Shown here: positions 379 through 53,072 of the stretch, in pieces | Position numbering within the stretch: the stretch's first letter is position 1 | Layout of the letters: every line of letters starts with the position of its first letter | Assembly: GCA_005879535.1 (NCBI GenBank) | Contig: VBKI01000047.1 | Location: 88,731 to 152,730, forward strand | Reading direction: 5' to 3' | Length of the DNA stretch: 64,000 nt | DNA from: Deltaproteobacteria bacterium | Lineage (GTDB): Bacteria; Myxococcota; Myxococcia; Myxococcales; 40CM-4-68-19 | Notes under the pieces: generated by a model | The model's input: only the letters and a program-made list of their open reading frames with translations | Told to the model about the DNA's origin: nothing | Database searches by the model: none | Position numbers and translations under genes: made by a program

Positions 379-475
379 CGAACATCTCCGGGGAACGGCA
401 GATGAGCTGCGGAGTCGTAGCGCTGAGAGGCGCTGCGCTCGAGGTTGAGGTATTGCTCCGCATCCGGAGGACACA

Positions 476-1081
476 ATGACGCGTTTCGCTGTCGGACTCT
501 TTGCCGCTGCCGTCCCCGCAATTGCCTTCGCGCAGGCGCCCGCCAATCCGCCCGTGAGAATCCGCGGGACCGTTGAGAAGCTCGACGGGCAGAATCTGAC
601 CGTCAAGGACCGCAGCGGGCAGAGCATGAACGTCAAGCTCGCCGACAATTTCGTGGTCGTGGGGATCTTCAAGGGAAGCGTCGCCGACATTGCAAGCGGC
701 AAGTTCATCGGCACCACGACGGTGGGCGAGCGCGATGGTGCGTTGGTCGCGCAGGAAGTGCACATCTTCCCCGAGAACATGCGAGGCACCGGCGAAGGGC
801 ATTACGACTGGGATCTCAAGCCCGAGAGCAAGATGACCAACGCGAACGTCGCCAACATCGTCAGCGTGGCGAACGACCGCGTGATGACCGTGCAGTACAA
901 AGGCGGCGAGAAGAAGATCCTCGTCACCAAGGACACGGTCGTCGTCACCTACACCCCCGTCGACAAGAGCGAGCTCAAGCCCGGCGCCCGCGTATTCCTG
1001 GTGTCGCAGAAGCAGTCGGATGGAGGCCTGACCGCTGCGCGTGTGAACGTCGGAATGAAGGGCCAGGTGCCGCCGATGTGA
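476..1081 (+). CDS. exported hypothetical protein (repeated beta-rich modules)
   Basis: GGAGG lies 7 nt upstream of the ATG at 476. Signal peptide MTRFAVGLFAAAVPAIAFAQA. High GC3. No catalytic motif recognised. Confidence 0.7.
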   Translation: MTRFAVGLFAAAVPAIAFAQAPANPPVRIRGTVEKLDGQNLTVKDRSGQSMNVKLADNFVVVGIFKGSVADIASGKFIGTTTVGERDGALVAQEVHIFPENMRGTGEGHYDWDLKPESKMTNANVANIVSVANDRVMTVQYKGGEKKILVTKDTVVVTYTPVDKSELKPGARVFLVSQKQSDGGLTAARVNVGMKGQVPPM

Positions 1082-2293
1082 TCACGCGGCGCCGGCGCCA
1101 AACGAAGGCAGCGAGCAACCAGAGGCTCCACCCATCGGCGCCAGCGCTGGCGCAGTGCGATCCGCCAGACGGCGTCGACCCGCCTTGGCCGGCGTCCCGC
1201 GTTCCGATTCCGAGGACCCCCTGGATCCGTTCCCAATGCGCCTGGCAGTTGGTCTGCACCGGCGTACAGGTGAGCGGTCCCAACAGCTCCCGGAAGCTCA
1301 TCACCCGCTGGAACGTCGCACCGTTGTCGTCGCTGGCACCGAGGCTGTAGCCGTCTACCACCAGGTCCGTGCAGCCGTAGATGCGCGTGGTTCCGGGACG
1401 CTGGCCGAGACAGCGCAGGTGCGGAGCGTCCTGCACCGTGAATGCGATCGCGTTCGGCTTGCGGATGTACAGCTTGCCGCTGCGCGTGGCCGCGTACAGT
1501 GTGCCGTCGCTCGCGCGCAAGAACGAGGAGAGTGGGGCCTCGGTGGAGTCCAGGATGGTCTGGAAAGTCTGCCCGCCGTCGAGCGTGACCCTGATGGAGT
1601 CGGAGACAGCCCCGACGATGCGCAGGTAGACCTTCTTCTCGTCATCCGGGTCCACGGCGAGGATCCGCGGCTCCGTCGCGGGGTCGAGCGGGAACGTCTT
1701 CGCGATGCCGGGCGTCGTGAACCGGTCGGAGCTGGCCACGAACGTCCCCGAACTGCTCGAAAACGAGGTCGCGTACGCGGCCCCCGGCTTGGACCGCGCG
1801 ATTTCCACGCCCGTCAGGATCTGCTGAGTTTCGTAGAGATGGGGCGCATCGAAGGTCTTGCCGCCGTCGTGCGAGGCGACCATGTAGCTGCCGGTCGGCG
1901 TCTCGGATCGGGAAAGAAATCCGCCACGAGCTGGTCGGTGATCGAGCCTGTGGACGACGGCCAGGTACACGCGACGTCGCTCGAGCGCGTCATGTTCCTG
2001 ATAGCGCCCGCGTCCGCGAGGAGGGCGCCGTCCGCGGTGAGGTTGTAGAAGCTGACGCTGGCGAACGCGAGCGCCGCGTTGGATCCCGCGACCACCCACG
2101 GCTCGCAACTGTAGCGCCAGGTCAGCCCGTCATCCTCGGAGACGAGCAGGCCGAAGTTGGCTCCGATGAAGATCCTGTGGGGAGAGCTGACTGGAAAATG
2201 GATGCTGAACTCGTCGGGAAAGGCGCCGTCCGCGTGCACAGCGCTGACGGCGCCGATCGCGATCGCCGCAAAGACCACGGTCTCCGCGCGCAA
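975..2293 (-). pseudogene. exported BNR/sialidase-fold protein with MYXO-CTERM-like tail, frameshifted
   Basis: ORFs 1814..2293 and 975..2108 carry the N- and C-terminal parts of one protein. It has signal peptide MRAETVVFAAIAIGAVSAVHA and BNR-type motifs SEDDGLTW, SHDGGKTF, TLDGGQTF and SDDNGATF. The frames switch inside 1900-1922 (...VADFFPDP / ETPTGSYMVASHDGGKTF). The C-terminus GGSHCASAGADGWSLWLLAAFVWRRRR resembles a MYXO-CTERM sorting signal. The in-frame stop comes only 36 codons later (975), while a TGA sits 1 nt out of frame at 1084..1082. Confidence 0.7.
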
Positions 2294-5706: not shown

Positions 5707-7404
5707 ATGAACCTGATCGTCTGCGCCCTCCTGCTCGCTGCCGCTCCTGCAACCGATGACGCCCGCTTCGACGTGTTCGCACAGAAGTACGTCCAGGAGC
5801 TCCTCGACCGCGACCCGGAGACTGCGACGCGCCTCGGTGACCACCGCAACGACGCGCGCCTCGACGATTACAGCGCGAAGGGGGTGGAGCGCGATCTGGC
5901 GGCGGCGAAAAGTGGGCTCGCGGAGCTGGCGCGCATCGATCCGAAGAAGCTGTCCGCCGAGGACGCAGTCGATTACCGCATCCTGAAGAACCGGCTCGAG
6001 TCACAGGTCTACGAGCTGCAAACGCTGCGAGGGTGGCAGTGGAATCCGCTGCAGTACAACGTCGGTGGCGCGATCTACGCGCTGATCTCACGAGAGTTCG
6101 CGCCCCCGGAGCAGGGGCTGCGATCGGTCATCGGGCGCCTGAATGGAGTTCCGGCGGTAGTCGCCGCGGCAAAGGCGAATCTCAAGTCTCCGCCGAAGGT
6201 GCATACCGAGACTGCCATCCAGCAGAACAAAGGGACGTCGAAGCTGGTGAAGGAGCAGCTGGAGCCGCTGGTGAAGCAGGCGCCGGGGTTGGAGAAGGAG
6301 TTCCGGACGGCGCAGTCGACGGCGCTGGCGGCGCTGGCGGACTACCAGCAGTGGCTGGAGAAGGAGCTGCTGCCGCGCTCCAACGGAGATTTTCGCCTCG
6401 GCGACGAGAAGTTCCGCAAGAAGCTGAGGTTCGCTCTCGATTCCGACCTGTCGAAAGAGGAGATCCTCCACCGCGCGGAAGCCGACCTCAAGTCGACGCG
6501 GTCGGCGATGTACTTCACCGCGATGCAGATGTGGCCGAAGCTGTTTCCGGAGAAGCCGCCGCCGGCGGATCAGGGCGCCGCGATCAAGGCCGTCCTCGAC
6601 GAGGCGGCGAAGAAGCACCCGAACAACGACACCGTCATTCCGCAGGCGACCAAGGCGCTGGCCCAGACCACCGCGTTCGTGAAGGAGAAAGGCTTCGTCA
6701 CGGTGCTCGAGGAACCGCTGGACATCGTCGCCACACCGGAGTTCCAGCGGGGAGTCGCGGTCGCATCCTGCAGCCCGGCGGGACCCCTGGAGAAGAACAA
6801 GAAGACTTTCTATTACATCTCTCCCACGCCGGAGGACTGGACGCCGGAGCGCGTGGACTCCTTCTTCCGCGAGTACAACGATTCCATGCTGCAGGAGATC
6901 ACCATCCACGAGGCGATGCCGGGCCATTATCTCCAACTGGCGCATGCGAATCGCTTCCGGGCGCCGACGTTGGTGCGCGGCGTGGTCTTTTCCGGCACGT
7001 TCGTGGAAGGCTGGGCGACGTACGCGGAGCAGTTGATGGCGGACGCCGGGTACGGCGGAGCGGACGTTCGCATGCAGCAGCTGAAGATGCGCTTGCGGAT
7101 GATCCTCAACGCCATCATCGACCAGAAGATCCACACCGAAGGGATGAGCGAGAAGGAAGCGATCGCGCGGATGATGAACGACGGCTACCAGGAGGAGGGC
7201 GAGGCCGTGGGGAAGTGGAAGCGCGCCCAGCTCACCTCCACGCAGCTCTCCACGTATTACGTCGGCAATGCGGAGATGAACGACATCCGCACGGCCTGGG
7301 AGAAGAACCACGGCAAGTATCCCGACCTGCGCGCGCTGCACGATGCGATGCTTTCCTTCGGCAACGCCGCGCCGAAGTACGTCAGGGAACGATTGGGAAT
7401 CTAG
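5707..7404 (+). CDS. DUF885 family protein (metallopeptidase-like, exported)
   Basis: Signal peptide MNLIVCALLLAAAPA. The family-typical segment is ITIHEAMPGHYLQLAHANRF. A GTG at 5698 is an alternative start. Confidence 0.85.
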   Translation: MNLIVCALLLAAAPATDDARFDVFAQKYVQELLDRDPETATRLGDHRNDARLDDYSAKGVERDLAAAKSGLAELARIDPKKLSAEDAVDYRILKNRLESQVYELQTLRGWQWNPLQYNVGGAIYALISREFAPPEQGLRSVIGRLNGVPAVVAAAKANLKSPPKVHTETAIQQNKGTSKLVKEQLEPLVKQAPGLEKEFRTAQSTALAALADYQQWLEKELLPRSNGDFRLGDEKFRKKLRFALDSDLSKEEILHRAEADLKSTRSAMYFTAMQMWPKLFPEKPPPADQGAAIKAVLDEAAKKHPNNDTVIPQATKALAQTTAFVKEKGFVTVLEEPLDIVATPEFQRGVAVASCSPAGPLEKNKKTFYYISPTPEDWTPERVDSFFREYNDSMLQEITIHEAMPGHYLQLAHANRFRAPTLVRGVVFSGTFVEGWATYAEQLMADAGYGGADVRMQQLKMRLRMILNAIIDQKIHTEGMSEKEAIARMMNDGYQEEGEAVGKWKRAQLTSTQLSTYYVGNAEMNDIRTAWEKNHGKYPDLRALHDAMLSFGNAAPKYVRERLGI

Positions 7405-8588
7405 CGCGTGGTCACACGCGCTTTCGACGACCCGACTTCCTTCGAGAGGGCCAGGTCCTCGAGGAACACGGCGGCCTCGCGCTGGGCGAGGTTCTCGTCG
7501 ACGACGACGACGGTGCCCTCGTTCAGCTTGTTCAGCGACAGTGCGTCGAGATTCGTCGATCCCACCGCCGTGATGCGCTCGTCGACCACCATGAACTTCG
7601 AATGCATCATCGTCGGACCGTACTCGTATGCCTTGACTCCTGCGCCGACGAGCTGATCCATCCTGGCCCGCTGCTGCGACAGATACGCTTTGGTATCCGT
7701 ACGCTCGCCGGCAGCCAGGACGCGAACGTCGACTCCCTCGCGCGCCTTGCGCATGAGGAGATCGAGGATCGGAACCGATGGCACGAAGTAGGCGTTGCTG
7801 ATCCAAAGGCGCTTGCGCGCGGCTCCGATCAGGAGCTGCGTCAGACGATCGCTCCTGGTCGCCACGCTGTTCTCGCTGCTGCTCACGAAAGCGGCGAGCG
7901 ACCGGCCGGCATCCTCCGAAGCCGGAAACGTGTCGCGGGGCAGCAGGGTCCTGGTCGCTTCCTCCCAGCTCTCCGCGAAGGCCTGCTGCATCTCCAGCAC
8001 GGCGGGTCCACGCACGAGCAGGTTGGAGTCGCGCCACTGCGGCGGCTGGTCCGTGCGGCCGTCGCCGTCCCATTTGTCGTCGATGCCGAACCCGCCGGTG
8101 ATTCCGACGCGCCCGTCGAGGATGAACATCTTCCGGTGCTCGCGGGCCGCGTCGTCCTGCCCAGGAATGGGACGGAAACGATGCGTCGCGCATCCGATGC
8201 CCTCGAGCTGCTTCTGCACGTTCGCGAAATTGGGGCTTCCCAGCGCGTCGACGATCACCCGGCAGGGGACTCCGTCGCGGGTCCTGCCCGCGAGTGCGGT
8301 GACGATCCGGCTGGAGACCTTCCCCTCGCTCCAGATGAAGCTCACCACATGGATGCTGCTGCGCGCCCGTGCGATCTCCTCGATGGCGACGTCGAAGACG
8401 CGGCCGTTGTTGACCACCTCCACCTGGTTTCCGGGCCGGAGCTGGACGCCTACCGTCTGAAAGAGGGCGTTGTCGAAATCCTGCGGCGCGATTGCCGCTC
8501 GATCGAGCCGGAACTCGCCCTTCGGGCTGCTGCGCCCGAAGCAGGCGGCCAGCCAGAGGCATGCGAGAGAAGCGAGCAAGCGCAGCAC
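7401..8588 (-). CDS. phospholipase D / cardiolipin-synthase-like lipoprotein (two HKD motifs)
   Basis: HKD motifs HRKMFILDGRVGITGGFGIDD and HSKFMVVDERITAVGSTNLD. A GTG start at 8588 gives (M)LRLLASLACLWLAACFG, a lipoprotein signal. The 508-aa ORF extension upstream is not protein-like. Confidence 0.85.
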   Translation of the reverse strand: MLRLLASLACLWLAACFGRSSPKGEFRLDRAAIAPQDFDNALFQTVGVQLRPGNQVEVVNNGRVFDVAIEEIARARSSIHVVSFIWSEGKVSSRIVTALAGRTRDGVPCRVIVDALGSPNFANVQKQLEGIGCATHRFRPIPGQDDAAREHRKMFILDGRVGITGGFGIDDKWDGDGRTDQPPQWRDSNLLVRGPAVLEMQQAFAESWEEATRTLLPRDTFPASEDAGRSLAAFVSSSENSVATRSDRLTQLLIGAARKRLWISNAYFVPSVPILDLLMRKAREGVDVRVLAAGERTDTKAYLSQQRARMDQLVGAGVKAYEYGPTMMHSKFMVVDERITAVGSTNLDALSLNKLNEGTVVVVDENLAQREAAVFLEDLALSKEVGSSKARVTTR

Positions 8589-16201: not shown

Positions 16202-16276
16202 TGGCTGGGGCGGTAGGAATCGAACCTACAAATGGCGGGGTCAGAGCCCGCTGCCTTACCGTTTGGCGACGCCCCA
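16202..16276 (-). tRNA. tRNA-Gln (anticodon CUG), CCA encoded
   Basis: Minus-strand 75 nt: TGGGGCG TC GCC AAACGGTAA GGC A GCGGG CTCTGAC CCCGC CATTT GTAGG TTCGATT CCTAC CGCCCCA G CCA. It folds as a cloverleaf with a 7-nt anticodon loop CU-CUG-AC. U1-A72 and G73 match E. coli tRNA-Gln, to which the sequence is closely similar. Confidence 0.95.
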
Positions 16277-45479: not shown

Positions 45480-45566
45480 GGCGCCTCCCGTCCGGGATCC
45501 GCGACTCTACACCCTTGAAATGCAGGGTGTCGTGGAGCGTAAGATGCGCGCCCTTCCGGAGACGAC

Positions 45567-48500
45567 ATGCTCCCTGCGCTCCTTCTCGCCGTCGCGATGT
45601 CCGCAGCCGCAACCCCCATGACCGTCGACGAAATCGTCGCCCGCCATCTCGAGGCGCGCGGTGGGGCCCAGAAGCTCGCGGCCGTGCAGAACCTCAAGGT
45701 CAGCGGCAAGGCGTTCTTCGGCGGCGACGACTTCACCATCACCGCCGAGTTCGCCCAGGTGCGCAAGCGGGCCAATCAGATCCGCACCGAGGTCACCCTC
45801 CAGGGACTGACGGGTATCGACGCGTACGACGGCCAGCAAAGCTGGAGCGTGGACCCCTTCCAGGGACGCAAGGATCCCTTCCGCACCACCGCCGACGAAG
45901 CGCGCGGGCTCGCGCAGGACGCCGACCTCGACGGCGCGCTGATCGGCTGGCGCGAGAAGGGAAACCAGGTCAGCTATCTCGGAACCGAGGACGTCGACGG
46001 GACGCCGGCGCACAAGCTCCGCATCGCGCTCAAGGACGGCGACGTGCAGTACGTCTACCTCGACCCCGACTATTTCCTCGAGATCCGCCGCGTGAGCGAG
46101 CGCCTGGTGCGCGGCTCGGAGCGGGTCACCGAGACCGACTATGGCGCGTACGCGCAGGTCAACGGCGTCTGGTTTCCCACCTCGGTGGAGTCGGGCCGCA
46201 AGGGCGCGCCGAAGACGCAGCGGTTCACGCTCGACAGCGTGGAGGTCAACGTCCCCGTCGAGGACGGGATCTTCCGCTTTCCCGCCGGGCCGGGAGCGCG
46301 CGCCATCGTTCCGCCGAAGAAGCCGGCGCCGCTGCTCGCCCAGGCGCCCGCGCCCAGGAGTGCGGCGAAGGCGCCGGCGATCGATTCCGGCGTCATCTCC
46401 GGATTGAACGCCCGCAACATCGGGTCGGCGACGATGAGCGGCCGCATCTCCGCCGTCGCCGGGAGAAACGTCGGGGGAAAGACCTTGCTGTTCGTGGGAG
46501 CGGCCAGCGGCGGGGTCTGGAAGAGCCAGGACGGCGGCACCACCTTCAAGCCCGTCTTCGACAAGCAGCCGGTGCAGTCGATCGGCGAGGTGCAGATCGA
46601 TCCCAAGAATACGCAGGTCATCTGGGTGGGAACGGGTGAATCGTGGACGCGCAATTCCGTCTCCATCGGCGATGGCATCTACAAGTCCGTCGACGGCGGC
46701 GAGAGCTGGAAGAACATGGGGCTCGGGAAGACGGAGCGGATCACGCGCATCGTCATCGATCCGCGCAACACCGATACCGTCTACGCCTGCGCGCCCGGGA
46801 AGCTGTGGAGCGACAGCCCGGATCGCGGCCTCTACAAGTCCACCGACGGGGGAAAGACCTGGGACCTGATCCTGACCGGGCCGAATCTCTCCACCGGCTG
46901 CAGCTCGGTCGCCATGGATCCCCGCAACCCGGACGTGCTCTTCGCCGCCCTCTGGGACTTCCGGCGCAAGGGGTGGACCTTCCGCTCCGGTGGCAACGGG
47001 GCGACCGCGGCGAGTGCCAGCGCGCTCTTCAAGTCGACCGACGGCGGGAGGAACTGGACGGAGGTCAAGGGTCTCGGCCCGAAGCCTTGGGGCCGGGTCG
47101 AGGTTGCGATCGCGCCTTCCAACTCGAGTGCCGTGTACGCGTTCGTGGAGTCCACCGCGTCCGCGCTGTGGCGCTCTTCCGACGGCGGCAACACCTGGGA
47201 CAAGCGCGACAACAGCCAATGGATGGTCTGGCGCCCCTTCTACTTCGCCCGGCTGATCATCGACCCCGCGAATCCAGAGCGCGTGTTCAAGACCGACGGC
47301 GCGCTCATCGCCAGCGACGACGGCGGCAAGAGCTTCACGCAGGTGGGCGGCTTCGGCGCCACGCATGGCGACTGGCACGACCTCTGGATCGACCCGCAGA
47401 ACCCCAAGCACATCGTCGGCGGCAACGACGGCGGAGTGTTCATCTCCTTCGACGGCGGAAACCGGTGGTGGAAGAACAACAACCTGCCGGTCTCGCAGTT
47501 CTACCATGTGGCCATCGACGACCGGGATCCGTACCGGGTGTACGGCGGCCTCCAGGACAACTCGAGCTGGGTAGCGCCGACGGCGTACGGCGGCGGCATC
47601 TCGAACGCCGTCTGGGAGAACCTGTACGGCGGCGACGGGTTCTGGACGGTCCCCGATCCCACCGATCCGGAAGCGGTCTATGCCGAGGCGCAGGGCGGGT
47701 ACATCGGTCGCGTCGATCGACGACTGCAGATCGCTCGCGACATCCAGCCGAAGGCGAACTACAAGGAACGGCTCCGCTACAACTGGAACACGCCCATCTA
47801 CGCGAGCCCCACCCAGAAGGCGACGCTCTACATCGGCGCGCAGGTCCTCTTCCGCTCGCGCGATCGCGGCGACAGCTGGGAGCGCATCTCGCCGGATCTG
47901 ACCTCCAACGATCCGGAGAAGAGGAGCACACCACGATCTACTCGATCAGCGAGTCGCGGTTCGACGCGAACACCATCTGGGTCGGCACGGACGATGGCAA
48001 CGTGCAGTTGACGCGCGACGGCGGAAAGACCTGGAACAACCTGGTGCGCAACGTGAAGGGGCTGCCGCCCGCGTCGTGGGTGAGCTGGGTGGAGGCGAGC
48101 CGCCACGATGCGGCTACCGCGTACGCCGCGTTCGACAGGCACACGTTCGGCGACATGGATCCCTGGGTGTACCGGACGACCGACTTCGGGAAGAGCTGGA
48201 CGCGTATTGTCGCGCCGGAGCAGGGCGTCAGGGGCTACGCGCACGTGGTGAAGGAGGACCTGATCCGCAAGGACCTCCTCTTCGTCGGCACCGAGCTCGG
48301 GCTCTGGATCTCGGTCGATGGAGCGAGGAGCTGGGCCGAGTTCAAGGGATCGGACTTCCCGGCGGTAGCGGTCCGCGATCTGCAGATCCATCCCCGCGAC
48401 GGCGACCTGATCATTGCCACGCACGGGCGCGGGATCTGGATCATCGACGATCTCGCTCCGCTGCGCGCATTCTCCCAGCAGACGCTTGCGCAAGAGGCGG

Positions 48501-49381
48501 CGTTCCTGCCTTGGCGAACTACGCAACAGCGGATCGCGGGGCAGGGGGGATGGGCGGAGGGCGACGCCACGTTCACCGGCCAGAACCCGGCGACCGGGGC
48601 GGTGATCAGCTACTACCAGCGGACCCGCCACCTGTTCGGGCCGATCAAGCTGGAGGTTCTGGACGCGCAAGGCAACGTCGTTGACACGATTCCCGCGTCG
48701 AAGCGGCGGGGGATCAACCGGGTCTCCTGGACGATGCAGGTCAAGCCGCCGCGGGTGCCGCGCGCCGCGGCGGTGGCGTTCGGCGGCTCGCAGGGTCCGC
48801 GCGTCGTGCCCGGGACGTATACGGTGCGGCTCACCAAGGGCACGCAGGTCTACCAGACGAGGCTCGACATCGGACTCGACCGGCGGGCGCCCTGGACGGT
48901 CGCCGACCGGCGGCAGCACTTCGAGGCGTCGATGAAGGCGCATGCGCTGTTCGGGGAGATGAGCGACCTGGTGGACGGGATCGATTCCGCCACCGTGGCG
49001 GTGGCGCAGAAGGTGAAGGCGCAGCCGCAGGATGCGCGGCTTCCGCCGCTTGGCGCGAAGCTGGAGGCGATGAAGAAGAAGATCGTGGCGACGAAGGAGG
49101 GGGGCGCGATCACCGGAGAAGAGAGGATCCGGGAGCACACAGACCATCTCTATTCGGCGCTCCTGTCGTGGGAGGGGAAGCCGGCGCGGTATCTGCTGGA
49201 GCGGACGGAGGCGTTGCGCAGGGAGCTCGCGGACGTGCGCGCGGAGTTCGATGCGGTGCAGCCGCAGATTCAGGCGATGCATCTGGAGCTTCGGCCTGTT
49301 CTTTTCGTGCCGCGGATGGCGTCGGCTTGCATCCATGACGGCGACGAGTGCCAGGGGTACCGGGAGACCAGCGCGCGGTAG
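45567..49381 (+). pseudogene. LolA-like N-terminal domain fused to a sortilin/VPS10-type BNR double-propeller protein, frameshifted
   Basis: ORF 45567..48011 has a signal peptide and a ~240-aa LolA-like module, followed by BNR motifs KSQDGGTTF, KSVDGGESW, KSTDGGKTW, KSTDGGRNW, RSSDGGNTW, ASDDGGKSF and RSRDRGDSW. It continues in ORF 46643..49381 (...EEHTTIYSISES...TRDGGKTW...TTDFGKSW...SVDGARSW...). The frames meet at about 47915-47925 (...SNDPEK / EEHTTIY). Roughly 15 residues that homologues, as I recall them, carry between these motifs are absent. Confidence 0.7.
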
Positions 49382-50796
49382 TGCCAGGATAAAGTGCTTT
49401 GGAGCTTGGGATGGCGGGTTCCGAATCTGATCCGGGGGGTGGACCTGCCCGGAACCTTGCGCCTCGAACCCCAAGCTCCAAAGCTGACTAAACACCGGTA
49501 ACGTTCTCGCCGCCTTTCGGCGGCCGCGAGCTGCAGGCTGCAAACCAAATTCAAGTGGCGCGAACCCGACAGCTGTTCGCGCCCTTTGAGTGTGCCCAGC
49601 GACCCAGAAGCCGACCGAAACGATGGTCCCCTTCGAAGGTTCCAGCCTCGCCTGCCGCCGCGCAGCCCGGGTTGACCCCGAACTACGCCGCCTCTCGTGA
49701 AGTTCGTCGCTCCCCGGAGTCTTGTATGCGGACGAATTGCGGGATCATTGGGTTCCCCGCTCCCGCCACGGCCTCGGATTTTCACCCGGGCCCACGCGGT
49801 CTCTCTTCGTCCGCCGTCCACCCCATCTTCCGATGAGGTTTCATCCTCCCTCGAGCTTTCCGCCTCCTTCAGAGTTCTACGGCCTGCGCGCCGCCCTTCG
49901 TGCCTGGTTGAACCTCGCGACCCAACCGAACAGCCGAAGAGCGCCTTCCTTGGGGTTCCCTTCCCTCATCGCGACTTCAGCAGCCGGCGTCTACCATTCC
50001 GCGGGGATTCCCGACCCAGCGGTCACGTTCCGTCCTCGACGTTTCTCACGTCCTCGACGGTTTCCTCCGCCAACTGCCTTCGCGGGCTTGTTTCATCCCG
50101 CTGCCACGTCCAGGGTTTGCCCTTCAGGGGTTTGTCCCTCGCCGCGGAGCCGTACCGGGTTTACCCGGCCGATTCATGCCCTCCTGCCGTTGGACGCAGC
50201 CGCCTGTGACCAGCGACCGCGCCCTCGACTTCAGGGCTTTGCTCCCCGCTCCGAATGCGGTGTCGGTCTAGACGGGTTGGGCCTCGACCGATCCGCGCCC
50301 CTCCTGGGCTTGAGCTCCTCCGGGTTCTCTCCCCGCGCAACGTGGGAACGCCTTCACGTCCCCTCCGCCCTCGACCTTGACCAGGAGGAACCCCTCCCGG
50401 CTGATCCCCGGCGTCTCGCCGTTGCATGGATTGGCTTGCCTGGATTCAGGCTGCCGACCCGCTCGAGCTTTCTGGCCTGAACCCCCGTCCTCCTTTCGAA
50501 AGTCGGGTTCGAGGCCTCGTTTCAGGCGGCCCACCGAGCCGCCGGACACGCAGACCCATAGAGCACGCGTCGTGCCATGCCGCGCGCGGCGTAACTACTC
50601 GGAATTGTTGAAAGTCTGGATCAGGCTGACGCGCACGATCTGGACACATTTCTGTGCGCGGATTGGGGATTTTCCGGGGGAGCCTGTGGTCGGGTTGTGA
50701 ACAAGGGGTGCGAGCGTGTCGGTAGCGCGATGTGAATTGTGCAGGGTGTGGACGATCGATCAGAAGCTGGTCGAGTCGTACAGAGACGCATCAGAC
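49382..50796 (-). ncRNA. candidate large structured non-coding RNA of unknown class (strand assignment tentative)
   Basis: No protein-like ORF and no GC3 periodicity. The + strand is 70-75% pyrimidine in the counted lines, and G+C is lower than in the flanking genes. There are more than 10 perfect local inverted repeats. Read on the minus strand, their loops are GAAA, UAAA and CAAA. See findings. Confidence 0.35.
49397..49483. terminator. long imperfect hairpin 16 nt after the sortilin-like stop (possible bidirectional terminator or 3' element of the adjacent RNA locus)
   Basis: CTTTGGAGCTTGGG (49397-49410) pairs perfectly with CCCAAGCTCCAAAG (49470-49483). An inner stem is formed by GGTTCCG (49417-49423) and CGGAACC (49450-49456). 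There is no clear U tract on either strand. Confidence 0.3.
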
Positions 50797-51210
50797 TCAG
50801 GTCAGAGCATTCTCGGGCTCCAACGGGAACACCCTGCGCACGTCCCCAGGAATCCGCGTAGGCCGTCCGCGAGCCAGGTCGACGTACACCCAGTCGGTCG
50901 CCGCGCGGCAAAGCAACTCGCTTCCGCGGAAGATCTCGGTCCGCCGCACGCTGTTTGCGACCTTCATCGACTCGACGCGCGTCTCGATGCGCAACCGGTC
51001 GCGCAGGACCGCCGCGCGCAGGTACTCGATCTCGTGCCTGCGCACGACCCACGCTTCGCCGCGCGAGATGTACGCCTGCTCGGAAAATCCCAGCGCTGTC
51101 GAGTGCGCCAGCGCCGCGTCCTGGACCCAGCGCAGGTAGACGAGGTTCGAGGCATGCCCGAGGTTGTCGATGTCGGCCTCGAGCACCTCGACTTCATGGA
51201 GGAACGGCAT
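50797..51210 (-). CDS. acyl-CoA thioesterase (4HBT/YbgC-like hotdog fold)
   Basis: MPFLHEVEVLEADIDNLGHASNLVYLRWVQDAALAH... is the typical hotdog thioesterase N-terminus. Confidence 0.8.
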   Translation of the reverse strand: MPFLHEVEVLEADIDNLGHASNLVYLRWVQDAALAHSTALGFSEQAYISRGEAWVVRRHEIEYLRAAVLRDRLRIETRVESMKVANSVRRTEIFRGSELLCRAATDWVYVDLARGRPTRIPGDVRRVFPLEPENALT

Positions 51211-51219
51211 TCGCCGAGC

Positions 51220-51681
51220 TTACGCCGCCTTTGCGTGCGCCGCGTTCCACTTCTCGCGCGCCTCGCGCTGCGCCTTGGCGGAGAGCTCCTTGCGGTGCTT
51301 GTCGCAGATGTAGCCGAACCGCGGGCCGCGCGACATGTTCTTGCAGCCTTCGACCCGGCAGTGCATGTCGAGCCGGCGCCCGCCGCCACCGCGGCTGGCG
51401 CGGGCAATACGGGCCGCCTCCTGGTTTTCCTTGGCGCGTTCGGCGAGGATCCTCTTCTGCTCCCGGACGGGAACGCTCCGTGCATGCTCACGGCAGAACC
51501 AGCGGTTGCGGGGACCTGCGCCGGCGTTCTTGCAACCCGGAAACGGGCACATGCGGATGCCGGTCCGCCGGCCGCCGCGTGCAAAGGCGGAGCGCGCGAA
51601 CATCTGCTCTGCGCGCGCTGCGATTGCGGAGGCGAACTGCTCGATGAAATTGTCCAGCAGGCCGTGGATGGGTTTGGGCAT
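51220..51681 (-). CDS. basic protein with two tandem C-x4-C-x12-C-x2-H zinc-ribbon-like motifs
   Basis: CPFPGCKNAGAGPRNRWFCREH and CRVEGCKNMSRGPRFGYICDKH have identical spacing. Each is followed by a K/R/E-rich helix. The start is taken at Met-17 (51681, MPKPIHGLLDNF). ATG 51729 is an alternative. Confidence 0.65.
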   Translation of the reverse strand: MPKPIHGLLDNFIEQFASAIAARAEQMFARSAFARGGRRTGIRMCPFPGCKNAGAGPRNRWFCREHARSVPVREQKRILAERAKENQEAARIARASRGGGGRRLDMHCRVEGCKNMSRGPRFGYICDKHRKELSAKAQREAREKWNAAHAKAA

Positions 51682-51782
51682 GTTCGTCCGCCAAGAAACG
51701 CGGCTTGAAAGCTGGCCGGTGGGGCTCATTCTCTAGCCGATTCGACAATGGATTGCTAGAACCAACGTCTTAAGCGAGTACC

Positions 51783-53072
51783 ATGGAGCTTGGTAATCTA
51801 CATCGGGCGCACGTCGGGCAACTGTTGCGACAAGTTGCTCCCCTGCTGGAGAACGGCGGTTTTTCGGCGCTGGTCGTCCACTCAGGGACGCCGCTCAAGC
51901 GCACCGACGCGGACGATCAGTACTGGCCGCTGCGACCCACGCCGCACTTCCAGCACTGGCTTCCCCTCGCCGACCCGGGGTGCCTGCTGATCGTCGTGCC
52001 GGGACGAAAGCCCGTCCTCGTCCGTCCCCATCCGCAGAGCTTCTGGGAAGCGCTGGCTCCGCCGGAAACGGATCACTTCTGGGATTCGTTCGAGGTCATG
52101 GACGCGGCGCCCGCCTTTCCCAAAGGGCGCGTGGCTTTCGTCGGCGACGATGCGGCCGCGGCGGCCGCGCTGAAGATCGCCGACGTCAATCCACCGGCGC
52201 TGGTGCGCGCGCTCGATGCGCTGCGCGTCTACAAGACTCCATACGAGGTGGAATGCCTCGCCGAGGCGAATCGCAGAGCGGCGCGCGGGCACGAGGAGCT
52301 GCGGCGCCTGTTCCAGGGCGCGGATCCGAGCGAGCTCCAGCTGCATCTCGCGTTCCTCGGCGCCACCCGGCAGGACGATGCGGAAACGCCTTACAAGAAC
52401 ATCGTGGCGCTGGGAAAGCACGCGGCGACGCTCCACCACGTCAGCTACGCGAAGCGCGCCCAGCCGGCGCAGTCATTGCTCGTCGACGCCGGCGCCTGTT
52501 TTGCCGGCTACTGCTCCGACATCACCCGCACCTGGGTGAAGGGTGGCGGAGCGGGCGCGACCGCTTTCGCGCAACTCGTCAGCGCCATGGAAGCGATGCA
52601 GCAGAGACTCTGCGCGCAGGTGCGGGTGGGGATGCCCTACGAGCAGCTCCACGACGAGTCGCACCGGCAGGTCGCCGCCATCCTGCGCGAGGTCGGAATC
52701 TCGCCGCTGCCGGCGGACGAGCTGGTCTCGCGCGGGATCACTCGCGCGTTCTATCCGCACGGCCTCGGGCATTCCCTCGGGCTGCAATGCCATGACGTCG
52801 GCTGCGCCCTGCGGCCGCCGCGCGAGGACAATCCTTTCCTGCGCAATACGACCGACATTGCGCCGGGACAGGTCTTCACCATCGAGCCGGGGCTCTACTT
52901 CATCGAGGCGCTGCTCGCGCCGTTGCGCAAATCGCCCGACATCGACTGGAAGCTGGTCGACGCGCTCACGGCTTTCGGCGGGATCCGCATCGAGGACGAC
53001 GTCGTGGTGCAGGACCAGGGGATCCGCAACCTCACCCGCGAAGTCCTGCCGGTCGGCGGCGGGCAAGCCTGA
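51783..53072 (+). CDS. pepQ: Xaa-Pro dipeptidase (M24B)
   Basis: ...YKTPYEVECLAEANRRAARGH...LVDAGACFAGYCSDITRTW...HGLGHSLGLQCHD...FTIEPGLY...GGIRIEDDVVV contains the M24B metal ligands. Confidence 0.9.
   Translation: MELGNLHRAHVGQLLRQVAPLLENGGFSALVVHSGTPLKRTDADDQYWPLRPTPHFQHWLPLADPGCLLIVVPGRKPVLVRPHPQSFWEALAPPETDHFWDSFEVMDAAPAFPKGRVAFVGDDAAAAAALKIADVNPPALVRALDALRVYKTPYEVECLAEANRRAARGHEELRRLFQGADPSELQLHLAFLGATRQDDAETPYKNIVALGKHAATLHHVSYAKRAQPAQSLLVDAGACFAGYCSDITRTWVKGGGAGATAFAQLVSAMEAMQQRLCAQVRVGMPYEQLHDESHRQVAAILREVGISPLPADELVSRGITRAFYPHGLGHSLGLQCHDVGCALRPPREDNPFLRNTTDIAPGQVFTIEPGLYFIEALLAPLRKSPDIDWKLVDALTAFGGIRIEDDVVVQDQGIRNLTREVLPVGGGQA

What the first reader, a model, noticed from the sequence alone, without database searches (positions are those of the whole stretch)
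49382..50796. ~1.4 kb ORF-free, strand-asymmetric, hairpin-dense locus: candidate large structured RNA of unknown class
No frame between the sortilin-like stop (49381) and the thioesterase stop (50797) gives a protein-like translation. The track ORFs here are overlapping P/R/S/G-rich strings, and they lack the third-position GC bias seen in every convincing gene of the window.

Composition shifts:
- The + strand is 45/60 pyrimidine at 49801-49860 and 42/60 at 50041-50100, so the minus strand is purine-rich.
- G+C falls to 37/60 at 49921-49980, against 41/60 in the coding line 48901-48960.

The interval is packed with perfect local inverted repeats:
- 49509-49514 / 49519-49524
- 49557-49565 / 49575-49583
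- 50082-50086 / 50097-50101
- 50155-50159 / 50164-50168
- 50221-50225 / 50233-50237
- 50384-50388 / 50393-50397
- 50438-50442 / 50447-50451
- 50474-50484 / 50505-50516 (one small internal loop)
- 50525-50530 / 50538-50543
- 50563-50567 / 50571-50575
- 50630-50636 / 50654-50660

Read on the minus strand, the loops are GAAA, UAAA, CAAA and GAAGUCG. CUGAA occurs six times, GAUGAAAC twice and GAUGAGGG once. That pattern fits a folded RNA better than a decayed gene.

The locus lies directly downstream, on the same strand, of a tandem zinc-ribbon protein and a thioesterase. I could not align it by eye to 16S/23S rRNA, RNase P, tmRNA or a complete group II intron.
Basis: seen in the sequence. Interest (0 to 1): 0.8.

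Follow-up and report, generated by a model that had tools for sequence, protein, structure and literature searches.

The report
New large structured RNA gene
The ORF-free gap holds a stand-alone gene for a roughly 0.9-kb, intricately folded non-coding RNA of soil myxobacteria that matches no described RNA family, is abundant in soil RNA samples, and may even occur as a circle.

Summary
Window 50551 to about 49541 (minus strand) is a gene for a large structured non-coding RNA.

- **Structure:** 60 non-redundant homologues (median 79% identity) support a fold of 247 base pairs in 47 helices. 96.9% of cells are paired, against 41-48% in slid controls. 134 pairs carry compensatory changes.
- **Not coding:** indels are mostly not multiples of three, and substitutions show no codon periodicity.
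- **Folding energy:** the sense strand folds far better than shuffles (z = -6.9). The antisense strand does not (z = -0.6).
- **Promoter:** an invariant sigma-54-type element (TGGCAC-N5-GTGCT) lies at 50577-50562. About 200 bp of conserved boxes lie upstream of it.
- **Precursor:** a 30-34 bp leader-trailer duplex, like an rRNA processing stem, encloses an 889-nt core.
- **Expression:** 43 RNA-derived soil contigs carry the RNA. None reaches upstream of the predicted start. Several are chimeras with tmRNA, rRNA or a group II intron, joined at the RNA's ends.
- **Possible circle:** five contigs are circular assemblies with exact 123-nt terminal overlaps. True circularity is unproven.
- **No known relative:** nothing matched in Rfam 15, plasmid, phage or viral collections, or in my literature searches.

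The function is unknown. I favour a stable trans-acting scaffold or particle RNA.

The parts
50631..50763 (-). Upstream regulatory region. It holds a palindrome-like box (CTGATCGATCGTCCA, 50763-50749) and a series of CACA-type boxes (50737-50729, 50704-50694, 50691-50683, 50670-50662, 50659-50650). It also holds GTGTCCAGATCGTGCGC (50647-50631). These are presumed activator (bEBP) binding sites.
   Evidence: The boxes are invariant or nearly invariant in 16 diverse loci, including loci with no thioesterase gene upstream (alignment A3). Their function as activator sites is inferred.
50562..50577 (-). Sigma-54-type promoter element TGGCACGACGCGTGCT (GG at -24, GC at -12).
   Evidence: TGGCA[CT]-N5-[GATC]TGCT occurs at a fixed distance in 58 of 58 distinct genomic upstream regions. 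No sigma-70-like site was found in 49200-51900.
50517..50551 (-). 5' leader, with the predicted transcription start near 50551. It pairs with the 3' trailer, or alternatively forms a local hairpin at 50543-50525.
   Evidence: The start is inferred 12 nt downstream of the -12 GC, and sequence conservation begins here. No RNA-derived contig reaches upstream of this point, and about 20 contigs begin 5-25 nt downstream of it. Leader-trailer duplexes of 30-34 bp appear in every species shown.
49628..50516 (-). Mature core of the RNA, 889 nt (G 39.5%, A 22.5%, C 26.4%, U 11.6%), folded into about 45 helices.
   Evidence: RNAalifold predicts 247 pairs, 134 with compensatory changes. Pair counts give 96.9% paired against 41-48% in slid controls, and 0 of 500 shuffles reach the observed values. 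Among unpaired positions, 43% are >=95% conserved.
49592..49627 (-). 3' trailer, complementary to the leader. Together they form the processing stem.
   Evidence: RNAduplex gives -52.8 kcal/mol in the window and -39 to -62 kcal/mol in the 11 other species printed. The variable part compensates, for example CUGAAACGA/UCGUUUCGG in the window against CCGGGUGCGU/ACGCGCCUGG in L020. The circular and chimeric contigs omit it.
49541..49583 (-). Terminator hairpin (GGCGCGAAC...GUUCGCGCC, 49583-49557) plus a U-rich tail.
   Evidence: The stem covaries between species, and relatives have clearer U tracts such as TTTTGATTTTG. The consensus scan did not call it in the window, because the tail is interrupted.

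Best explanation
Window ~50551 to ~49541 (minus strand) is a stand-alone gene for a large non-coding RNA of an uncultured soil Myxococcales lineage.

**Transcription.** It starts from a sigma-54-type promoter (50577-50562). About 200 bp of conserved upstream boxes probably bind an activator. This gives a primary transcript of roughly 1.0 kb that ends at a hairpin terminator.

**Processing.** The 5' leader and 3' trailer pair into a 30-34 bp duplex, like the processing stems of rRNA operons. This duplex is cut and trimmed, most likely by RNase III followed by exonucleases. The product is an ~890-nt core.

**Mature RNA.** The core folds into about 45 helices with many invariant unpaired nucleotides, and it accumulates to high levels.

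**Function.** It most likely acts in trans as a compact structural RNA, either a scaffold for proteins or an RNA-only particle. Antisense pairing and coding are unlikely.

**Shown here:** the conserved fold, the non-coding nature, the promoter element, the leader-trailer duplex, expression, and the positions of the RNA ends.

**Inferred:** sigma-54 and activator dependence, the processing enzymes, and the trans-acting scaffold role.
For: **Conservation.** The gap is 75-83% identical over ~1200 nt in species whose flanking thioesterase protein is only 67-81% identical.

**Structure.** 247 pairs fall in 47 helices, and 134 pairs carry compensatory changes. There are 968 compensatory cells, against 125-174 in slid controls. 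The covariation score is 0.284 against 0.055-0.080, and 0 of 500 shuffles reach it. Invariant G-U pairs fix the strand.

**Non-coding.** Indel lengths modulo three are 440/138/46 for remainders 1/2/0. Variability by codon position is flat at 0.142-0.145.

**Folding energy.** z = -6.9 on the sense strand only.

**Promoter.** The sigma-54 element is present in 58 of 58 genomic upstream regions. The upstream boxes persist across different genomic contexts.

**Leader-trailer duplex.** It forms in every species shown.

**Expression.** 43 short contigs come from about 38 samples. Five of them (of 20 contigs scanned against Rfam) also contain tmRNA, 23S, 18S or 28S rRNA, or a group II intron, so these assemblies derive from RNA. 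None of the 43 includes promoter or flanking genes, and their ends cluster at the predicted transcript and core ends.

**Independence from neighbours.** Divergent members lack the thioesterase or zinc-ribbon genes, or lie next to unrelated genes.

**Constraint outside helices.** 43% of unpaired core positions are >=95% conserved.
Against: - No experiment was done. Function, processing enzymes and sigma-54 dependence are all inferred.
- No activator (bEBP) gene was found in the 64-kb window by a motif search.
- The terminator scan did not call the window's hairpin.
- That the short contigs are RNA-derived is itself inferred, from the chimeras and the pattern of contig ends. No sample metadata were available.
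- Some DNA contigs (L144, L146) also begin at the start of the conserved core. Part of the 5'-end clustering could therefore reflect assembly breakpoints.
- The homologues were found by an exact 19-mer and by synteny, so the alignment samples one clade only.
Confidence: 0.85

Rival explanations
1. The mature RNA is a covalently closed circle in vivo. After the leader-trailer stem is cut, the two ends, which the closing helix holds together, are ligated into an ~890-935 nt structured circular RNA.
For: - Five contigs (L112, L119, L148, L187, L196) have exact 123-nt terminal direct repeats and are circular permutations of the core. Their units are 891-936 nt, and RNA position ~1160-1172 is joined to ~246-280.
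- Further permuted or dimeric contigs exist: L211, L147, L136, L173 and L195.
- A 123-nt overlap is the usual signature of circular assemblies in IMG metatranscriptomes (10.1101/2022.07.19.500677).
- Permuted contigs occur only in the RNA-type sample series. They never occur in contigs that carry flanking genes.
Against: - The same libraries give end-to-end chimeras with tmRNA, rRNA and a group II intron. End joining therefore also happens artefactually, by reverse-transcriptase template switching or tip extension during assembly.
- Some 'dimers' join copies that are only 81-93% identical (L173, L211, L195). Such molecules cannot come from one cell.
- Junction positions differ between lineages. 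The leader is kept in L187 and L196 but trimmed in L112, L119 and L148.
- No self-cleaving ribozyme was detected.
- Many RNA-type contigs are linear and keep the trailer.
Confidence: 0.3
2. It is a protein-sequestering regulatory RNA. It would be a sigma-54-driven sponge like CrcZ or CsrB, or a mimic like 6S RNA.
For: - The promoter type is shared with CrcZ, GlmY and Qrr (general knowledge).
- The RNA is purine-rich, with 43 GGA and 9 GGAGG motifs.
- It is highly abundant.
Against: - Hairpin loops are mostly GNRA-like or long conserved loops, not repeated GGA or A-rich sites. Most GGAGG tracts are base-paired.
- Conservation spans the whole 889 nt and includes 171 near-invariant unpaired positions. 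Sponges conserve only their short binding motifs.
Confidence: 0.15
3. It is a new ribozyme, or a self-processing or self-splicing RNA.
For: - Its size and number of helices are comparable to large ribozymes.
- It has many invariant unpaired nucleotides.
- Its RNA ends are defined, and circle-like junctions exist.
Against: - No match to any group I or II intron, RNase P or self-cleaving ribozyme model, even at E <= 10.
- Leader and trailer sequences near the ends are not conserved apart from their complementarity. This points to structure-specific protein nucleases.
Confidence: 0.1
4. It is a decayed protein-coding gene, a missed gene, or merely a long 3' UTR of the thioesterase operon.
For: - Long stop-free stretches exist, for example a 252-aa ORF on the + strand.
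- One assembly's gene caller placed a 278-aa gene here (L015).
- The RNA lies on the same strand as the thioesterase gene.
Against: - There is no Pfam hit, indels are not codon-sized, and there is no codon periodicity.
- Open frames on the antisense strand are expected in a C/U-rich, high-GC sequence.
- Helices covary.
- The region has its own conserved promoter.
- The RNA is present without the thioesterase gene.
- RNA-derived contigs never include thioesterase sequence.
Confidence: 0.02
5. It is a viroid-like or Obelisk-like RNA replicon, or another mobile element, present in or integrated into the genome.
For: Circular assemblies of about 0.9 kb occur in metatranscriptomes.
Against: - It is encoded in DNA at a syntenic chromosomal site in 9 species-level genomes and in dozens of metagenome contigs.
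- It has a bacterial promoter and terminator.
- The fold is branched, not rod-like.
- There is no conserved ORF and no ribozyme.
- It is absent from the viral, phage and plasmid collections.
Confidence: 0.02

Closest known systems
Large 'ornate' bacterial non-coding RNAs (OLE, GOLLD, ROOL, HEARO, raiA)
   Same: It is hundreds of nucleotides long, has dozens of covarying helices and many invariant unpaired nucleotides, and has no ORF. It is abundant, its function is unknown, and its phylogenetic range is narrow. GOLLD, ROOL and OLE form RNA-only homo-oligomers (PMC12286853, abstract seen). That is one model for what this RNA could do.
   Different: - It has no detectable sequence or structure homology to any of them.
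- It comes from a different lineage, uncultured soil Myxococcales.
- It has a sigma-54-type promoter with a long upstream activator region.
- It has an rRNA-like leader-trailer processing stem.
- It gives circularly permuted assemblies.
rRNA precursors with leader-trailer processing stems (RNase III substrates; circular pre-rRNA intermediates in archaea)
   Same: The mature RNA is enclosed by a long duplex formed by its 5' leader and 3' trailer. The ends of the accumulated RNA lie at the base of this duplex.
   Different: It is not an rRNA, since no SSU or LSU model matches. It is a single 0.9-kb RNA under a sigma-54 promoter. The processing enzymes were not tested.
Sigma-54-dependent regulatory RNAs (CrcZ/CrcY, GlmY, Qrr, Pxr of Myxococcus)
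   Same: It has a -24/-12 promoter, so its expression is presumably controlled by an activator and a signal.
   Different: Those RNAs are 100-400 nt. They act through short repeated motifs or by base pairing. This RNA is ~890 nt with a globally conserved, complex fold.
Viroid-like cccRNAs and Obelisks from metatranscriptomes
   Same: It gives circular assemblies of about 1 kb with 123-nt terminal overlaps in IMG-type metatranscriptome contigs.
   Different: It is DNA-encoded and vertically inherited, with a bacterial promoter. The fold is branched, and there is no Oblin-like ORF and no ribozyme.
Circularly permuted group II introns that produce RNA circles (PMC8637638, listed)
   Same: They are bacterial, chromosomally encoded sources of circular RNA.
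   Different: No group II domain models match in or around the locus. The leader is 35 nt and the trailer 36 nt, too short to hold intron domains.

Membership tests
Any curated Rfam 15 family (rRNA, RNase P, tmRNA, 6S, group I/II introns, self-cleaving ribozymes, OLE, GOLLD, ROOL, HEARO, raiA and others) | A match to the family covariance model at or above its gathering score. | tested here: not met
   The whole window at gathering threshold gave only a tRNA at 16205-16276. The stretch 49200-51000 at E <= 10 gave two chance hits, mir-1304 at 17.7 bits and sR42 at 11.8 bits.
Structured non-coding RNA gene (generic) | A conserved secondary structure supported by compensatory base changes. | tested here: met
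   134 of 247 pairs carry double changes. 96.9% of cells are paired, against 41-48% in slid controls. 0 of 500 shuffles reach the observed values.
Structured non-coding RNA gene (generic) | No protein-coding signal. | tested here: met
   Indel lengths modulo three are 440/138/46, variability per codon position is flat, and there is no Pfam hit.
Sigma-54-dependent promoter | GG and GC dinucleotides spaced by 10 nt, in a TGGCAC-N5-TTGCW-like context, upstream of the start. | tested here: met
   TGGCA[CT]-N5-[GATC]TGCT occurs in 58 of 58 distinct genomic upstream regions at a fixed distance.
Sigma-54-dependent promoter | Dependence on RpoN and an enhancer-binding activator bound upstream. | not testable with these tools
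   Conserved upstream boxes fit activator sites.
Intrinsic terminator | A G+C-rich hairpin directly followed by a U tract. | tested here: inconclusive
   A covarying hairpin sits at 49583-49557, with clear U tracts in relatives. The window's tail is interrupted, and the scan did not call it.
RNase III-type processing stem (as in rRNA operons) | A duplex of >=20 bp formed by 5' leader and 3' trailer, enclosing the mature RNA. | tested here: met
   Duplexes of 30-34 bp, at -39 to -62 kcal/mol, with compensating variable parts.
RNase III-type processing stem (as in rRNA operons) | Cleavage by RNase III. | not testable with these tools
   Only the end positions of RNA-derived contigs are available.
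Obelisk / viroid-like cccRNA replicon | Apparently circular RNA assemblies. | tested here: inconclusive
   Five contigs have exact 123-nt overlaps. However, artefactual chimeras occur in the same libraries.
Obelisk / viroid-like cccRNA replicon | A rod-like fold, an Oblin ORF or paired ribozymes, and no DNA counterpart. | tested here: not met
   The fold is branched, with 47 helices. There is no conserved ORF and no ribozyme. The element has a chromosomal DNA locus in many genomes.
CsrB/RsmZ- or CrcZ-type protein sponge | Many repeats of a short binding motif exposed in loops, with otherwise weak conservation. | tested here: not met
   The loops of the consensus fold are GNRA-like or unique conserved loops, and GGAGG tracts are mostly paired. 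Conservation is global.
Circularly permuted group II intron | Domains 5-6 upstream and domains 1-4 downstream of the circularised segment. | tested here: not met
   No Intron_gpII or D1-D4 hit in 49200-51000. The leader is 35 nt and the trailer 36 nt.

The most novel reading that the evidence does not exclude
This would be a chromosomally encoded, sigma-54-controlled RNA of soil myxobacteria. It would be excised from its precursor through an rRNA-like processing stem and then covalently circularised. The result would be an ~0.9-kb, highly structured, very stable endogenous circular RNA, possibly assembling into an RNA-only particle. Bacteria are not known to make such a molecule from an ordinary gene.
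Probability: 0.3. Interest if true: 0.93.

Novelty: categorically new. Interest (0 to 1): 0.82.

Why it matters
- **Rarity.** Large, intricately folded bacterial RNAs with no known function are rare. Each past case (OLE, GOLLD, ROOL, raiA) opened a line of structural and functional work.
- **Lineage.** This one comes from uncultured soil Myxococcota, a lineage with almost no RNA biology.
- **Testable now.** It is abundant enough to be assembled from dozens of soil RNA samples. It comes with a defined promoter, defined ends and a 60-sequence alignment, so it could be tested directly by in vitro transcription, cryo-EM and RNase R.
- **Unusual combination.** It combines a sigma-54 promoter, an rRNA-like processing stem and circular assemblies. 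If the circle is real, it would be a new route to structured circular RNA in bacteria.
- **Practical lesson.** DNA-encoded RNAs can look like viroid-like circles in metatranscriptome surveys.

Tried and rejected
- **Rfam.** I searched the whole window at gathering threshold and the locus at E <= 10. Nothing relevant turned up.
- **ORFs in the gap.** None has a Pfam family.
- **Other copies.** Self-similarity and profile searches found no second copy in the window.
- **Linkage to the thioesterase and zinc-ribbon genes.** I rejected a functional link. The RNA occurs without them. It is also absent downstream of the more distant thioesterase homologues fetched (68% identity or less; L029-L056).
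- **Conserved protein partner.** I looked in the flanks of divergent loci and found none. The neighbours were a PLP decarboxylase, DAO, an alpha/beta hydrolase and a TPR protein.
- **Activator gene.** A motif search for a bEBP in the window found none.
- **Mobile-element collections.** Viral contigs, plasmids and phages gave no match.
- **Literature.** Five searches on large RNAs, Myxococcota, sigma-54 and viroid-like circles found no description of this RNA.
- **Cognate versus non-cognate leader-trailer energies.** This was a weak test of co-evolution (-49.6 against -45.3 kcal/mol), because most of the leader is conserved. The compensating variable segment is the useful evidence.
- **Unaligned extensions of short contigs.** I first suspected divergent copies. 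Of the 20 contigs scanned, five carry rRNA, tmRNA or group II intron chimeras.
- **Collection scans.** The genome-collection and metagenome scans were each used once, so cultured Myxococcota could not be searched directly for the RNA.
Full report
**1. The observation**

The interval 49382-50796 lies between the stop of a sortilin/BNR-like gene on the + strand and the stop of a 4HBT-type thioesterase gene on the - strand.

These cover the pyrimidine and G+C tallies, the eleven inverted repeats, the loop sequences, and the CUGAA, GAUGAAAC and GAUGAGGG counts.

The features are not chance.
- This is the most strand-skewed 900 nt of the whole 64-kb window, more than 5 sd from the mean.
- The 897-nt core folds with z = -6.9 against dinucleotide shuffles on the minus strand. 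The plus strand gives z = -0.6, and two coding controls give +0.6 and -0.9.
- The full-length MFE is -543 kcal/mol on the minus strand and -428 on the plus strand.

**2. Source and homologues**

The window's thioesterase is encoded identically on soil metagenome contigs and on a MAG, GCA_005879745.1. Its relatives are labelled Myxococcales or Deltaproteobacteria MAGs.

In every relative whose thioesterase is >=67% identical, gene callers leave a 1.25-1.5 kb gap after that gene. The gap DNA is 75-83% identical to the window over ~1200 nt. It is therefore conserved about as well as the neighbouring protein.

A scan of metagenome contigs with an invariant 19-mer brought in 120 more loci.

**3. 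It is a structured RNA, not a gene remnant**

I aligned sixty sequences dereplicated at 96% identity; their median pairwise identity is 79% (A2).
- RNAalifold predicts 247 pairs, 134 of them with compensatory double changes.
- Counted independently, 96.9% of cells are standard pairs, against 41-48% when partners are slid by 1-3 columns.
- There are 968 compensatory cells, against 125-174 in the slid controls.
- The covariation score is 0.284, against 0.055-0.080, and none of 500 shuffles reaches it.
- Invariant G-U pairs and the energy asymmetry fix the minus strand as the RNA strand.

The coding tests are negative.
- Indels relative to the window are overwhelmingly not multiples of three (440/138/46 for length remainders 1/2/0).
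- Variability shows no three-base periodicity.
- No ORF in the gap has a Pfam family.

43% of unpaired core positions are >=95% conserved. This points to tertiary or ligand contacts rather than a loose sponge.

**4. Anatomy of the gene**

*Promoter.* TGGCACGACGCGTGCT at 50577-50562 has the GG-N10-GC spacing of sigma-54 promoters. The same element, TGGCA[CT]-N5-NTGCT, occurs in 58 of 58 distinct genomic upstream regions at a fixed distance. No sigma-70-like site was found. The inferred start is about 50551, which is exactly where strong conservation begins.

*Upstream region.* A ~200-bp stretch carries a palindrome-like box and five or six CACA-type boxes, some about one helical turn apart. These are conserved even in loci with entirely different neighbours. 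They therefore belong to the RNA gene and probably bind an activator. That role is inferred.

*Leader and trailer.* The first ~35 nt (the leader) pair with a 3' trailer at 49627-49592 into a 30-34 bp duplex. In the twelve species printed it scores -39 to -62 kcal/mol. The variable part of the leader is matched by compensating changes in the trailer. This resembles the processing stems that flank rRNAs.

*Terminator.* A covarying hairpin at 49583-49557 with a U-rich tail follows the trailer. In some relatives a U run directly follows the trailer instead.

*Core.* The enclosed core, 50516-49628, is 889 nt long. It is G/A-rich and holds about 45 helices.

The others are the terminator, a leader hairpin, promoter and regulatory inverted repeats, a species-specific hairpin, and one not in the consensus fold.

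**5. Expression and ends**

43 short contigs from about 38 samples (the series Ga0222, Ga0242, Ga0127, Ga0134, Ga0058 and Ga0265726) carry the RNA but never its promoter or flanking genes. None extends upstream of RNA position 246. About twenty begin 5-25 nt downstream of it.

I scanned 20 of the short contigs against Rfam, and five proved to be chimeras. In these, the RNA's 3' end (position ~1160-1175) is joined to one of the following:
- position 1 of a tmRNA;
- position ~24 of a bacterial 23S rRNA;
- position 1 of a group II intron;
- eukaryotic rRNA pieces.

These assemblies therefore derive from RNA. The RNA is abundant and stable enough to assemble, and its ends lie at the base of the leader-trailer stem. 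That the samples are metatranscriptomes is my inference from these facts, since no metadata were available.

One caveat applies. Two DNA-type contigs also start at the beginning of the conserved core, so some of the end clustering may reflect assembly breakpoints.

**6. Circle or artefact**

For a circle:
- Five contigs have exact 123-nt terminal repeats and are circular permutations of the core, with units of 891-936 nt.
- Others are permuted or dimeric.
- A 123-nt overlap is the typical mark of circular assemblies from IMG metatranscriptomes (10.1101/2022.07.19.500677).
- Such contigs occur only in the RNA-type series.

Against a circle:
- The same libraries produce end-to-end chimeras with unrelated RNAs.
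- Some 'dimers' join copies only 81-93% identical.
- Junction positions vary between lineages.
- No ribozyme is present.

I rate true in vivo circularity at about 0.3. The data cannot separate it from template switching between ends that the fold holds together.

**7. Context**

The RNA is not tied to its neighbours.
- In L105 it follows the zinc-ribbon gene directly.
- In L115 and L129 it is divergent from pepQ.
- In L102, L198, L216 and others it sits among unrelated genes: a PLP decarboxylase, DAO, an alpha/beta hydrolase and a TPR protein.
- Downstream of the more distant thioesterase homologues fetched (68% identity or less; L029-L056) there is no such RNA.
- It occurs once in the window.
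- It is absent from the viral, plasmid and phage collections.

**8. Mechanism**

The best-supported reading is a signal-controlled, sigma-54-dependent gene. Its ~1.0-kb transcript is matured through a leader-trailer stem into a compact ~890-nt RNA that acts in trans as a structural RNA.

Among the possible roles, I favour a protein scaffold or an RNA-only particle, by analogy with OLE, GOLLD and ROOL (PMC12286853). A sponge is unlikely, because there are no repeated loop motifs and conservation is global. A new ribozyme is possible but unsupported. Coding, UTR and replicon readings are contradicted by the data.

**9. Comparison and novelty**

No curated family matches, and five literature searches found no description of this RNA. 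As a type of object, a large ornate bacterial ncRNA, it has precedents. As a family it is new. It also combines features not reported together:
- a sigma-54 promoter with a long activator region;
- an rRNA-like processing stem;
- circular assemblies.

**10. Verdict**

Confidence that it is a functional structured RNA gene is about 0.85-0.9. Confidence in any specific function is low.

Noticed in passing
window 16205-16276 (-): A tRNA gene. It was the only Rfam match at gathering threshold in the whole window.
   Followed up: no
window 49395-49485 (+): A long hairpin with 15-nt perfect arms (GCTTTGGAGCTTGGG ... CCCAAGCTCCAAAGC) lies directly after the sortilin-like stop codon. A related TTGGGGCTTGG...CCAAACCCCAA element sits at the same place in L022-L024. 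It is probably that gene's terminator or a REP-like element, not part of the RNA.
   Followed up: partly
window 49509-49524: A GCCGCC-TTTC-GGCGGC hairpin lies between the RNA's terminator and the sortilin hairpin. Among the 12 loci aligned it occurs only in the window and the near-identical L010. Its role is unknown.
   Followed up: no
window 45518-49381 (+): The sortilin/BNR-like gene is split into two overlapping ORFs (45567-48011 and 46643-49381) with an in-frame stop. The near-identical contig L004 encodes one intact 1287-aa protein. The window differs from it by a single gap and a deletion of about 48 nt. This is either an assembly error or a strain-specific pseudogene.
   Followed up: partly
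L171 (Ga0137420_1422639), 406-1702 (-) and 6195-7510 (+): One 7.9-kb contig carries two inverted copies of the whole pepQ, zinc-ribbon, thioesterase and RNA block. Both copies have many small indels and low protein identities. It looks like a mis-assembly or an error-rich sequence rather than a real duplication.
   Followed up: no
L114, L190, L194, L125, L199: Short contigs join this RNA end-to-end to a complete tmRNA, bacterial 23S rRNA, eukaryotic 18S and 28S rRNA, and a group II intron. Chimeric assembly at native RNA ends appears common in these samples. It could mislead surveys of circular or novel RNAs.
   Followed up: partly
alignment A2 columns 401-425 (window ~50211-50208): About half of the lineages carry an extra hairpin (GCGC-GGGUCAAACC-GC) that is inserted at the tip of one helix and is missing in the window. 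It is a variable peripheral element, typical of large structured RNAs.
   Followed up: no
window 51220-51729 (-): A 169-aa cysteine-rich (zinc-ribbon-like) protein has no Pfam family above threshold; only a weak CxC6 hit appears. It is conserved next to the thioesterase in most relatives.
   Followed up: no
L001-L005 loci, roughly 10 kb on the thioesterase side of the RNA: A conserved cluster lies beside the locus. It holds kynurenine-pathway genes (tryptophan dioxygenase, kynureninase, FAD monooxygenase), plus peptidase M2, a PTR2 peptide transporter and PepQ. This may hint at the nutritional setting but shows no proven link to the RNA.
   Followed up: no
window core, e.g. 50309-50298 with 50130-50119, and 50237-50226 with 50189-50178: Invariant three-by-three purine internal loops (GAA opposite AGG) flanked by G-C helices recur. 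They may be tandem sheared G-A modules or recognition sites.
   Followed up: no
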